In this document: positions 10,324 through 12,647 of the stretch, piece by piece
How positions within the stretch are numbered: the first letter of the stretch is position 1
Layout of the letters: each line of letters starts with the position of its first letter
Source: the human T2T-CHM13v2.0 reference genome, Homo sapiens
NCBI RefSeq assembly: GCF_009914755.1
Contig: NC_060925.1
DNA length: 64,000 nucleotides
Direction: 5' to 3' (one strand)
The notes under the pieces: model-generated
What the model was told of the DNA's origin: nothing
Database searches by the model: none
What the model saw: only the letters and a program-made list of their open reading frames with translations
Program-made: the position numbers and the translations under genes

Positions 10324-10472
10324 GTATCTGTCTGCTAATATGAATTTGGGGATTGTATTTGTTGAGAGAAGGAAACAGGCTGGTAGAAAACTCCTCTGTA
10401 CCTTGTCACTTCACAGACAGTGACTGTCAGGATAGGTCTCTTCTCCAAGTGCAGAAGGAGCAGCAAATATTG
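10324..10472 (+). repeat. Arm 1 of a 149-bp inverted duplication
   Basis: Reverse complement of 12499-12647 with one mismatch (10351 g versus 12620 a). Confidence 0.97.
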
Positions 10473-11405
10473 TTGACCGAAGCCAACCCTTTCTGCCGCC
10501 AGACCCCAAACTGTCCATTGCAGCCACCTTAAGTAGTCCTCTGCTCACCAACAAGCAGTGTCCCCTATAAGTGAGAAGCATTCCACAAGCTAGGCTATGG
10601 GATCAGCATGTCACCCAGGGCTCTATTGCTGGTTTAGAGGAGAGTGGCTGAAATTAGAATACTACCTTCTCCTAGAGATTAAAAGCTACAGCCTCTGGGA
10701 AAATTCTTTTTCAGTTTCCTCTTGGAAGATTTCTCATTCATTCAGCTGAGCCTTAGGCTGTGGGGCAACACTTTCTCAGTTATAACCTTTTGATGTAATT
10801 ATAATTATAATTCTAAGCCTAAAAGATGGTCTCAAGTTGTACCATTTTGCTTACAACACAGCACTAAGGTGAGGCCGGTGGGTCTAAAGGTCCAGGAGTC
10901 TCGAGGGGTAGCCAGGACCCAGTGTTGCCCACCAGCTGTGTGGTCCTAAATGCAAGCTGCTGGACCCCCGGGCCTTGGTCCTTAATTAGAGACAATACCC
11001 TGCTGGTTCCTCATATATCACAGGGCGATTCTGAAGATAACAAGAAATCGTGTACCTGAACATGGGGAGACACTAAGTGATATATAACTGTGAGGACTAT
11101 TATTACTGACCTGTGAGTATGTGGGCAGCAGCATGGGACACTTTGAGGGGATTGTTCTCCGCTGAGCCTTTGTGCACAGAATGTACAGGAGTCACTTGGA
11201 ACCTGCTCATATCAGTCTTGTTGTTGGATATCAATGTTTGAAGTTAACTTAAGACTCAATTTGTCCAGTTTTACAACCATATGCCTCTCTGGTTGCCTCC
11301 CCGACCCCACTACCACAGAGCTAGACTTGCACATTTTACCTTTTTTAATTCTGTTTGTTTTTTCAAATACTCATTACACTTGAGTGCTAAATACTGTATA
11401 CCTTC

Positions 11406-12010
11406 TTGTGGCGATTACTCAAGGATCTAGAACCAGAAATGCCATTTGACCCAGCAATCCCATTACTGGGTGTATACCCAAAGGATTATAAATCATTCTG
11501 CTATAAAGACACATGCACACATGTTTATTGCAGCACTATTCACAATAGCAAAACCTGGAACCAACGCAAATGCCCATCAATGATAGACTGGATAAAGAAA
11601 ATGTGGCACATATACACCATGGAATACTATGCAGTGATAAAAAAGGATGAGTTCATGTCCTTTGCAGGGACATGGATGAAGCTGGAAACCATCATTCTCA
11701 GCAAACTAACACAGGAACAAAAAACCAAACACTGCATGTTCTCACTCATAAGTGGGAGTTGAACAATGAGAACATGAGAACACATGGACACAGGGAGGGG
11801 AATATCACACACCGGGGCCTGTTGGGGGGTGGAAGACTAGGGGAAGGATAGCATTAGGAGAAATACCTAATGTAGATGGCGGGTTGATGGGTGCAGCAAG
11901 CCACCGTGGCACATATATACCTGTGTAACAAACCTGCACGTTCTGCACATGTACCCCAGACCTTAAAGTATAGTAAAAATAAAATAAAAATTAAAAAACA
12001 AAAATAAAAG
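11406..12010 (+). mobile_element. 5'-truncated L1PA (L1PA7-like): ORF2 C-terminus, 3'UTR and A-rich tail
   Basis: ORF 11406-11762 ends in the L1 ORF2 C-terminal sequence WMKLETIILSKLTQEQKTKHCMFSLISGS; 3'UTR gatagcattaggagaaatacctaatgtagatg. Confidence 0.93.
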
Positions 12011-12014
12011 TGAG

Positions 12015-12360
12015 GCTGGGCATGGTGGCTCACGCCTGTAATCCCAGCACTTTGAGAGGCCGAGGCAGGTAGATCATCTGACGTCAGGAGTTCAAGACCA
12101 GCCTGGCCAACCTGGTGAAACCCGCCTCTACTAAAAATACAAAAAAATACAAAAAAAAAAAAAAATTAGCCGGGGGTGGTGGCACATGCCTGTAATCCCA
12201 GCTACTTGGGGGGCTGAGACAGGAGAATCACTTGACCCTGGGAGGCAGAGGTTGCAGTGAGCTGACATTGTGCCACTGCACTGCAGCCTGGGCAACAAGA
12301 GCAAAACTCCATCTCAAAAAATATAATAATAATAAATAAATAACTTAAATAAATAAAATA
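12015..12360 (+). mobile_element. AluS inserted at the end of the L1 tail
   Basis: Sense Alu with expanded middle A-run; TSD aaaataaaa(g/c)tgag on both sides. Confidence 0.95.
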
Positions 12361-12498
12361 AAACTGAGTCAAAATAACTTTGCTTTGATGATTTCATATT
12401 ACACTTGGAACAATCCTTGTTCAAAAATTACAGATGTCTAGTTGGGAATCATTGAAATTGAAAATAGTTTAAATATTAAAAGAAGGGGATATTTGCTG

Positions 12499-12647
12499 CA
12501 ATATTTGCTGCTCCTTCTGCACTTGGAGAAGAGACCTATCCTGACAGTCACTGTCTGTGAAGTGACAAGGTACAGAGGAGTTTTCTACCAGCCTGTTTCC
12601 TTCTCTCAACAAATACAATACCCAAATTCATATTAGCAGACAGATAC
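12499..12647 (-). repeat. Arm 2 of the 149-bp inverted duplication
   Basis: 148/149 identical to the reverse complement of 10324-10472. Confidence 0.97.

What the first reader, a model, noticed from the sequence alone, without database searches (positions are those of the whole stretch)
10324..12647. Near-perfect 149-bp inverted duplication, not a recognisable TE, in the last RGL1 intron
Seen: 12499-12647 is the reverse complement of 10324-10472 at 148/149 positions, with a 2026-bp spacer. The left junction of arm 2 has a tandem micro-duplication (atatttgctgc at 12489-12499 and 12501-12511). The right junction abuts the 5'-truncated end of an L1PA8-like fragment. Known: such junctions mark template switching during L1 integration or microhomology-mediated repair. 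Oddity: the arms look much less diverged than the neighbouring L1 fragments appear by eye, implying a recent event, gene conversion or recurrent inversion, or selection. Inference: in the pre-mRNA the arms can form an almost perfect 149-bp dsRNA stem. It would loop out the sense L1 and Alu and their AATAAA-rich tails, which might shield RGL1 from intronic polyadenylation before its last exon and provide a non-Alu ADAR/Dicer substrate.
Basis: partly seen in the sequence, partly recalled or inferred. Interest (0 to 1): 0.85.

Follow-up and report, generated by a model that had tools for sequence, protein, structure and literature searches.

The report
Recent inverted copy inside RGL1 intron
A 149-base piece of the last RGL1 intron was copied backwards about 2 kb downstream fairly recently, most likely by a DNA copying slip; this is an ordinary kind of mutation scar with no shown function.

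Summary
Bases 12499-12647 are the reverse complement of 10324-10472 at 148 of 149 positions, with a 2026-bp spacer. The arm occurs only at these two places in the T2T genome.

The arms are far younger than the neighbouring L1 fragment. They differ at 1 of 149 sites. The L1 fragment differs from its 8 closest fetched genomic copies at 5.4-9.4% of non-CpG sites.

Three junction details point to a template switch unrelated to L1 integration:
- an aborted 11-nt first copy lies just left of arm 2;
- the end of arm 2 matches, 10 of 16 in register, the L1 bases expected just upstream of the junction;
- the L1 fragment has no recognisable target-site duplication.

I read this as a switch that landed inside an older, longer L1 and deleted its 5' part. 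Such events are a described class: "non-tandem duplication, opposite strand" and "3-2-1-4" template switches. A second unrelated example lies 165 kb away.

The 147-149-bp RNA stem is predicted thermodynamically. Nothing supports poly(A) shielding or selection. No primate orthologue or human population data could be consulted, so the date and the polarity of the copy remain inferences.

The parts
10324..10472 (+). Arm 1, inferred to be the source of the copy. It is unique intronic sequence.
   Evidence: 148/149 to arm 2. (only two places in the genome). The polarity, source rather than copy, is inferred from the junction features.
10473..12488 (.). Spacer, or loop. It holds unique DNA at 10473-11413, an old L1 3' end at about 11414-12000 (+), an old Alu at 12007-12310 (+) with an A-rich tail to about 12365, and unique DNA at 12366-12488.
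   Evidence: mask 11414-12370. (L1 is 89-91% identical to its best copies). (Alu is 82-86%). (sub-threshold SRP/Alu matches on the + strand). (Alu target-site duplication 12/12 at 11977 and 12351).
12489..12499 (-). 'Stutter': an 11-nt reverse-complement copy of 10460-10470. I read it as an aborted first round of templated synthesis. Its last base, 12499, is shared with arm 2.
   Evidence: sequence. (1 of 3 such tandem 11-mers in 64 kb, and it sits exactly at the junction).
12499..12647 (-). Arm 2, inferred to be the inserted reverse-complement copy of 10324-10472.
12632..12647 (+). The last 16 nt of arm 2. They match, 10 of 16 in register, the L1 bases that in 7 of 7 other L1 copies lie just 5' of where this L1 fragment starts. 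I read this as a homeology that guided the return switch.
   Evidence: alignment. (P = 0.003 for a fixed length; 0.006 when the length is chosen among 10-25).
12648..12854 (+). Old L1 3'-end fragment. Its present 5' edge is inferred to be secondary, created by the rearrangement. Base 12648 is of uncertain origin.
   Evidence: mask 12646-12920. (84-89% identity to the 39 non-self matches scored, out of 3719 candidates). (5.4-9.4% non-CpG divergence). (no target-site duplication; all P > 0.3).
12480..12489 (+). Left copy of a 9/10 direct repeat (aagaagggga). The right copy, aggaagggga, is at 12650-12659 inside the L1. Together they flank the insert. This is unexplained and may be chance.
   Evidence: P = 0.018 at random places in the window; 0.003 with shuffled flanks.

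Best explanation
This is a recent local templated insertion, also called a non-tandem inverted duplication. It was made by template switching during replication or break repair, and it was independent of the integration of the neighbouring L1.

Inferred course:
1. A growing + strand left its template at about 12488.
2. It copied the + strand of the same intron about 2 kb behind it. It first copied 11 nt (10470 to 10460) and fell off.
3. After re-priming on a single shared C, it copied 149 nt (10472 to 10324).
4. It then returned to the original template inside an old L1, guided by a 10-of-16 homeology. Whatever lay between the leaving point and the return point was deleted, including the L1's more 5' part and its original 5' junction.

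The template could equally have been the nascent RGL1 pre-mRNA, which gives the same geometry.

What is shown and what is inferred:
- Shown: the sequence relations, the uniqueness in the genome, and the age gap.
- Inferred: the order of the steps, which arm is the copy, and the deletion.

As a by-product, the RGL1 pre-mRNA can close a 2-kb loop with a stem of 147-149 bp. That stem is a plausible nuclear ADAR substrate. I expect no selected function.
For: - The arms match at 148/149 with sharp ends and no decayed flanking homology.
- The arm occurs at only two places in the genome.
- The arms differ at 1/149. The abutting L1 fragment differs from its 8 best fetched copies at 5.4-9.4% of non-CpG sites, which predicts 8-10 differences in 149 bp. 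P(at most 1) is 3e-3 to 3e-4. Those copies were picked from the top of a ranking, so the test is conservative.
- The arms show no indel, whereas the L1 comparisons show 6-17 gap columns.
- The 11-nt stutter lies exactly at the entry junction.
- The exit junction shows the in-register homeology, and arm 2 keeps the arm-source letters there rather than the L1-like letters. That fits a nascent strand carrying the copy annealing onto the L1.
- The L1 fragment has no target-site duplication at either candidate left edge.
- Published classes fit. Frith and Khan (PMC5829575; passages read) list, among 166 local rearrangements, 21 opposite-strand non-tandem duplications plus 6 with deletion at the target. 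They note that rearrangement edges often coincide with transposon-fragment edges.
- Loytynoja and Goldman (PMC5453318; passages read) find that type 3-2-1-4 and its mirror create inverted repeats and make up 31% of 794 human-chimp events. They never observed events with point 4 before point 1.
- A second, unrelated local inverted copy was found in the 264 kb control.
Against: - No outgroup or second human haplotype could be consulted, so the absence of arm 2 in an ancestor is not shown.
- The age estimate rests on one substitution. The 95% Poisson range is 0.025-5.57 events. That is about 0.1-19 Myr or 0.2-37 Myr at assumed rates of 1.0e-9 or 0.5e-9 per site per year.
- A 9/10 direct repeat flanks the insert (P = 0.003-0.018). 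The model does not explain it. It would better fit a return upstream of the leaving point or a staggered break.
- By eye, the last bases of arm 2 and the bases just after the L1 tail match 6 of 9 (sequence). This is a weak hint that arm 2 could be the L1's old flank. The formal scan was not significant.
- Gene conversion between short inverted arms cannot be excluded from the sequence alone.
Confidence: 0.6

Rival explanations
1. The inverted copy was made when the L1 fragment integrated. Either the top-strand end snapped back on resected upstream DNA and then primed on the L1 cDNA, or ORF2p switched template. The two arms have since been kept alike by gene conversion.
For: - Arm 2 abuts the L1 5' edge to within a base.
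- A homeology at that junction would also be expected for microhomology-mediated 5' attachment.
- An endonuclease-like TT|AAAA lies at 12476-12481.
- In cell models, L1 ORF2p causes local inverted duplications and templated insertions at target sites (PMC11702581; passages read).
Against: - The arms differ at 1/149, where 8-10 differences are expected at the L1's age.
- Arm ends show no erosion and flanks show no decayed homology.
- No target-site duplication flanks the composite and no poly(A) follows arm 2.
- From recalled knowledge, not tested here: arms of 149 bp are at or below the length at which mammalian recombination becomes inefficient.
Confidence: 0.12
2. This is a recent template switch with a different geometry. 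Either arm 1 is the new copy (mirror type 1-4-3-2), or a single event inverted the 2-kb spacer and duplicated its flank (type 3-1-2-4).
For: - Both types are described, and 3-1-2-4 with its mirror makes up 23% of events (PMC5453318).
- The 6-of-9 match seen by eye between the end of arm 2 and the bases after the L1 tail would fit arm 2 being the old L1 flank.
- An inverted repeat cannot by itself tell which arm is older.
Against: - The 12-nt tandem would then have to be ancestral, with a breakpoint falling on its unit boundary by chance. Only 3 such tandems exist in 64 kb.
- The source edge would also have to coincide with the L1 edge by chance.
- No microhomology is used at 10472|10473, where TTG is doubled rather than shared.
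Confidence: 0.1
3. The stem is a selected RNA structure. It would shield the last intron from premature cleavage and polyadenylation, or serve as a dedicated ADAR/Dicer substrate, and purifying selection keeps the arms identical.
For: - A strong arm-to-arm stem is predicted.
- The loop holds 11 of the 13 poly(A)-signal hexamers of the intron.
- A published hypothesis links long-range intronic pairing to suppression of premature polyadenylation (PMC8052449; passages read).
Against: - Selection for pairing does not require letter-for-letter identity.
- Two hexamers lie outside the loop.
- The L1 and Alu tails predate the arms.
- No annotated transcript ends in the intron and no functional element is annotated there.
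- No paper links RGL1 to such a structure (no mention of RGL1 in PMC11838218 or PMC8052449).
- At 149 bp the stem is below the 300-bp length that those papers use for MDA5-type substrates.
Confidence: 0.03
4. Assembly artefact in T2T-CHM13.
For: None from the sequence. Reads were not available.
Against: This is inference; no reads were seen. A 149-bp internal inverted insertion with one substitution, a stutter and clean unique flanks lies well within the length of a single long read. It does not look like a fold-back chimera.
Confidence: 0.02
5. Terminal inverted repeats of an unrecognised DNA transposon.
For: Two inverted arms bound a 2.3-kb unit.
Against: - No direct repeat lies at the outer edges...gcat before 10324 against ccca after 12647.
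- The arm occurs nowhere else in the genome.
- The interior is ordinary intron plus older retroelements.
Confidence: 0.01

Closest known systems
Non-tandem localized duplication, opposite strand, with or without deletion at the target (Frith and Khan 2018, PMC5829575)
   Same: A nearby unique segment is re-inserted in reverse orientation a few kb away and the source is retained. One edge coincides with the edge of a transposon fragment, as those authors often saw.
   Different: Their cases were polymorphisms polarised with ape outgroups. Here only one haplotype was seen and the ancestral state is inferred.
Template-switch mutation, four-point model, type 3-2-1-4 (Loytynoja and Goldman 2017, PMC5453318). 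Related papers on hairpin and miRNA birth (PMC8794818, PMC10710096) were seen only as search listing and abstract start.
   Same: The copied fragment is the reverse complement of nearby sequence. The order of points is 3 < 2 < 1, and the event creates an inverted repeat that can fold as RNA.
   Different: Those events are tens of bases long and lie within one fork. Here the copy is 149 nt taken from 2 kb away, with a second (stutter) switch. The authors say multi-switch, long-range cases lie outside their model; they fall in FoSTeS/MMBIR territory (PMC2621351, search listing only).
L1 ORF2p-associated local rearrangements (PMC11702581), and twin priming (recalled, not read)
   Same: An inverted segment lies at the 5' edge of a truncated L1.
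   Different: The inverted segment is not L1 sequence. It is much younger than the L1, and no target-site duplication or poly(A) frames the composite.
Templated sequence insertion polymorphisms, class 2 (PMC5110952)
   Same: A patch-like templated insertion with end-joining features and no poly(A). An RNA template is possible.
   Different: In the passages read, those patches come from a distant genomic region. Here the donor is 2 kb away in the same intron.
Predicted long intramolecular dsRNAs and conserved long-range pairings (PMC11838218, PMC7006430, PMC8052449)
   Same: An intronic, highly paired (>96%) duplex with a loop of about 2 kb. That is the median loop length in the dsRNAscan catalogue.
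   Different: It is non-repetitive, which is the sparse class, and shorter than 300 bp. It is very likely not conserved and has no editing evidence. The supplementary tables of these catalogues, which may list it, were not opened.

Membership tests
Template-switch inverted duplication (3-2-1-4 / non-tandem duplication, opposite strand) | The fragment is the reverse complement of nearby sequence on the same chromosome, and the source is retained. | tested here: met
   (148/149). (both copies present and no others).
Template-switch inverted duplication (3-2-1-4 / non-tandem duplication, opposite strand) | The copy is absent from the ancestral or outgroup sequence. | not testable with these tools
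   No primate or other human assemblies were available. Recency is inferred only from 1/149 against L1 divergence.
Template-switch inverted duplication (3-2-1-4 / non-tandem duplication, opposite strand) | The junctions carry switch signatures (short or imperfect homology, extra switches) and not retrotransposition signatures. | tested here: met
   Stutter at the entry. A 10/16 homeology at the exit. No poly(A). No target-site duplication for the L1 composite. Caveat: an unexplained 9/10 flanking direct repeat.
L1 integration-coupled inverted duplication / twin priming | Same age as the L1 insertion. | tested here: not met
   1/149 against 5.4-9.4% non-CpG divergence; P(at most 1) is 3e-3 to 3e-4. 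This holds unless gene conversion acted.
L1 integration-coupled inverted duplication / twin priming | A target-site duplication frames the whole composite. For twin priming, the inverted part is L1 sequence. | tested here: not met
   (no target-site duplication; P > 0.3 at all candidate edges). (the arm is unique non-L1 DNA).
DNA transposon with terminal inverted repeats | A target-site duplication at the outer edges and multiple genomic copies. | tested here: not met
   (no direct repeat at the outer edges). (2 places only).
Class 1 templated insertion (L1 ORF2p in trans) | A target-site duplication of at least 5 bp, a poly(A) tract, and a TTTT/A site. | tested here: inconclusive
   A 9/10 direct repeat flanks the insert, but it is offset by the stutter on the left and 2 nt on the right. 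TT|AAAA lies nearby. No poly(A) tract, so that feature is not met.
Palindrome kept by arm-to-arm gene conversion | The arms are more alike within a species than between species. | not testable with these tools
   No orthologues. Indirectly against: sharp arm ends without erosion.
Functional long-range RNA structure (conserved complementary regions) | Both arms are conserved, with compensatory changes. | not testable with these tools
   Only the thermodynamic prediction was done. Rfam finds nothing at the arms, only sub-threshold Alu-related matches in the spacer.
Long, highly paired dsRNA of the MDA5-substrate class | More than 300 bp, more than 96% paired, and present in a cytoplasmic RNA. 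| tested here: not met
   The stem is 149 bp and intronic. The criteria are taken from PMC11838218 and PMC7006430.

The most novel reading that the evidence does not exclude
Arm 2 is a hominid- or human-specific insertion, either fixed or still segregating. It gives a broadly expressed gene a perfect 149-bp non-repeat duplex in its last intron. That duplex is heavily edited or diced. It measurably changes last-intron splicing or the use of the L1/Alu-tail poly(A) signals, or the arms mediate recurrent inversion of the 2-kb spacer.
Probability: 0.05. Interest if true: 0.5.

Novelty: new member of a known kind. Interest (0 to 1): 0.2.

Why it matters
As it stands, the feature is a clean, well-preserved example of a template-switch scar. 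The junctions are still legible: an aborted first copy, a re-priming on one base, and a homeology-guided return into an L1.

It also carries a practical warning. A '5'-truncated L1 end' can be secondary, made by a later rearrangement, so an abutting oddity need not date from the L1's integration.

If an ape comparison showed the insertion to be human-specific, it would be a natural test case for what a newly born perfect intronic duplex does to a pre-mRNA. No evidence here suggests an effect on RGL1.

Tried and rejected
- Transposon reading: rejected. The arm has two copies only and no target-site duplication.
- Known RNA family at the arms: none. Rfam at E up to 1 gave only sub-threshold Alu-related matches in the spacer.
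- Residual homology beyond the arms, as an old, larger duplication would leave: none.
- Target-site duplication of the L1 fragment at three candidate left edges: none significant.
- Literature link between RGL1 and an inverted repeat or intronic A-to-I editing: none. One search gave 4 papers; 3 are titled as plant studies and the passage read from the fourth is unrelated. One search counted 3 papers and listed 2; the RGL1 passage of one was read, and the other was seen as a listing only.
- Naming the L1 subfamily: not possible without a repeat library.
- 'Not masked' as evidence of uniqueness: weak. The mask file covers only 14% of the 264 kb, so I relied on genome copy number instead.
- Base-rate control: limited to 264 kb. 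It held 2 loci with local near-identical non-masked inverted pairs.
- Supplementary tables of PMC11838218, PMC7006430, PMC8052449 and PMC5829575, which may list this duplex or rearrangement: not opened.

Recalled only, not read: twin priming, microhomology at L1 5' junctions, minimal homology length for mammalian recombination, Pol theta stutter synthesis, U1 telescripting beyond what quotes, and the assumed substitution rates.
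Full report
**Observation.** Arms 10324-10472 and 12499-12647 are reverse complements at 148 of 149 positions, separated by 2026 nt. The one difference is G at 10351 against T (reverse complement) at 12620. 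It is not a CpG site; the arms contain no CpG at all and are 43% G+C. Homology ends abruptly: 400-nt flanks on either side align no better than shuffles (scores 15 and 18 against means 13.9 and 15.6). The tandem atatttgctgc at 12489-12499 and 12501-12511 is real. Arm 2 abuts an L1 3' fragment (mask from 12646; alignment). The feature lies in the last RGL1 intron, 9690-13454. In the 64 kb window no other pair, direct or inverted, reaches 95% identity over 50 bp.

**What the arm is not.**
- The arm, and 601- and 295-nt stretches that include its flanks, match only these two places in the T2T genome at E up to 10. The caveats are that matches in closed regions are not shown and that very common words are skipped. 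So it is not a repeat family.
- There is no direct repeat at the outer edges, so it is not a transposon with terminal inverted repeats.
- Rfam finds nothing at the arms. The only matches are sub-threshold Alu-related ones in the spacer.
- The mask file is incomplete, covering 14% of 264 kb. I therefore give weight to copy number, not to masking.

**Ages.**
- The L1 fragment next to arm 2 (12648-12854) is 84-89% identical to the 39 non-self matches scored, out of 3719 candidates.
- The spacer L1 (11414-11965) is 89-91% identical to its best copies.
- The spacer Alu is 82-86% identical to its best copies (39 matches scored, self included, of 8418 candidates).
- I aligned the L1 fragment pairwise to its 8 top-listed matches and ignored CpG sites. 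This gives 5.4-9.4% substitutions (mean 7.0%) and 6-17 gap columns.
- Two sequences created together with that L1 should therefore differ at about 8-10 of 149 sites. The arms differ at 1 and have no indel. The Poisson P(at most 1) is 3e-3 to 3e-4. The comparison copies came from the top of a ranking, so this is conservative.
- With assumed rates of 1.0e-9 or 0.5e-9 per site per year (recalled values), one difference gives 3.4 or 6.7 Myr. The 95% ranges are 0.08-18.7 and 0.17-37.4 Myr.

**Entry junction.** Bases 12489-12499 are an exact reverse-complement copy of 10460-10470, which is the same piece that opens arm 2 twelve bases later. Only 3 such tandem 11-mers exist in 64 kb, so its position exactly at the junction is not chance. 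The simplest reading, which is an inference, has four steps:
1. The growing strand first copied 11 nt of the template.
2. It dissociated.
3. It re-primed with its terminal C on the G at 10472.
4. It then copied 149 nt.

**Exit junction.** Alignment with 6 other L1 copies and the spacer L1 fixes the register. The last 16 nt of arm 2 match 10 of 16 positions of the L1 bases that all 7 copies carry just 5' of the point where this fragment begins. P is 0.003 for a fixed length and 0.006 when the length is chosen among 10-25. Arm 2 keeps the letters of the arm source there, not the L1-like letters. That is what one expects if a nascent strand ending in the copy annealed onto a resident L1 and went on. 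It implies that the L1 once extended further 5', and that its present 'truncated end' was made by this event.

In agreement, no target-site duplication for the L1 fragment is found, whether the left edge is taken before arm 2, at the end of arm 2, or before arm 1 (all P > 0.3). This removes the coincidence that made the L1-integration reading attractive. Any breakpoint inside an L1 looks like a 5' truncation.

**What does not fit.**
- A 9/10 direct repeat (aagaagggga at 12480-12489; aggaagggga at 12650-12659) flanks the insert. P is 0.018 from random places and 0.003 from shuffles. It would suit a return upstream of the leaving point or a staggered break.
- I nevertheless favour chance, for two reasons. 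The right copy is ordinary L1 sequence, including its G. And Loytynoja and Goldman never observed events in which point 4 precedes point 1 (PMC5453318).
- By eye, the last bases of arm 2 and the bases after the L1 tail match 6 of 9. The formal scan gave nothing.
- Both points are recorded as unexplained.

**Mechanism and rivals.**
- I commit to a recent template switch, replicative (FoSTeS/MMBIR-like) or in break repair, with arm 2 as the copy and a deletion at the target. Confidence is 0.6.
- A nascent RGL1 transcript as template would give the same product and cannot be told apart.
- The main rival is an inverted duplication made at L1 integration and homogenised since (0.12). Cell-model work shows ORF2p-linked local inverted duplications (PMC11702581). 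But this rival needs gene conversion over arms of only 149 bp, without any erosion of the ends.
- Other geometries of a recent switch, with arm 1 as the copy or with the spacer inverted in the same event, get 0.10. They require the 12-nt tandem and the L1 edge to coincide with breakpoints by chance.
- Selected RNA structure gets 0.03, assembly artefact 0.02, and transposon 0.01.

**RNA consequences.**
- ViennaRNA gives a duplex of -287.8 kcal/mol. In the minimum-energy folds of both 10324-12647 and the whole intron, 147 of 149 arm-1 bases pair with arm 2. So the stem is a fair prediction.
- By published criteria it is highly paired but short. The thresholds used for MDA5-type substrates are above 300 bp and above 96% paired. 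Such structures in introns are removed by splicing (PMC11838218; PMC7006430).
- The shielding idea resembles a published hypothesis for conserved pairings (PMC8052449), but it finds no support here.
  - 11 of 13 hexamers are in the loop and 2 (12845, 12932) are outside it.
  - The L1 and Alu tails are much older than the arms.
  - None of the 13 annotated RGL1 transcripts in the window ends in this intron. 12 of them use the 9689-to-13455 junction, and one ends upstream at 3884.
  - No functional element is annotated in the intron.

**How ordinary is it?**
- One human genome compared with the reference showed 21 opposite-strand non-tandem duplications, plus 6 with target deletion, among 166 supported local rearrangements. 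Rearrangement edges often lay at transposon-fragment edges (PMC5829575).
- Template-switch events that create inverted repeats number in the hundreds between human and chimpanzee even at short range (PMC5453318).
- In my own control of 264 kb (the window plus 200 kb downstream), a second, unrelated locus has a unique-sequence palindrome with its source-like copy 2.4 kb away.
- The feature is therefore a new member of a known kind.

**Limits.**
- No outgroup, no second haplotype, no reads and no RNA data could be used.
- The polarity, the date and the deletion are inferences from one haplotype.
- Supplementary tables that might list this duplex or rearrangement were not opened.
- Papers were seen as follows:
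  - Passages read by term search: PMC5829575, PMC11702581, PMC7006430, PMC11838218, PMC5110952, PMC5453318, PMC8052449, and one passage of PMC12723240.
  - Search listing and abstract start only: PMC7954356, PMC8794818, PMC10710096, PMC8604942, PMC2621351, PMC9499983.

Noticed in passing
L028:1546-1722 and L028:4085-4175 (chr1:183447546-183447722 and 183450085-183450175, outside the window): A second local, non-masked, genome-unique structure. It is a palindrome with arms of about 62 bp (98% identity). The arms enclose three tandem 23-mers. A further copy of the arm lies 2.4 kb downstream (96-98% identity). It looks like another template-switch scar.
   Followed up: partly
window 12798-12854 and 12855-12911: The L1 3' end is present twice in tandem. 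The two 57-nt units are 74% and 75% identical to the spacer L1's 3' end at 11935-11991, and about 90% to each other over their first 40 nt by eye. This is either a tiny second L1 insertion into the first tail or an old tandem duplication.
   Followed up: no
window 7396-7688 (-) and 12024-12321 (+): Inverted Alu pair of about 80% identity in the two introns flanking the 115-nt exon 9575-9689. This geometry is known to favour back-splicing. The new stem would enclose the downstream Alu in its loop.
   Followed up: no
window 12480-12489 and 12650-12659: A 9/10 direct repeat flanks the inserted copy (P = 0.003-0.018). The favoured model does not explain it.
   Followed up: partly
window 11977-11988 and 12351-12362: A perfect 12/12 A-rich direct repeat frames the Alu. 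The Alu therefore inserted into the tail of the spacer L1.
   Followed up: no
/data/chr1.tsv.gz, masked_repeat rows over chr1:183272001-183536000: Only 14% of these 264 kb is listed as masked. That is far below the usual repeat share of human DNA, so absence from this list does not show that a stretch is non-repetitive.
   Followed up: no
L020:69-187 (chr1:183366069-183366187): Two adjacent 60-nt units at 95% identity, unmasked. This is a small recent tandem duplication.
   Followed up: no
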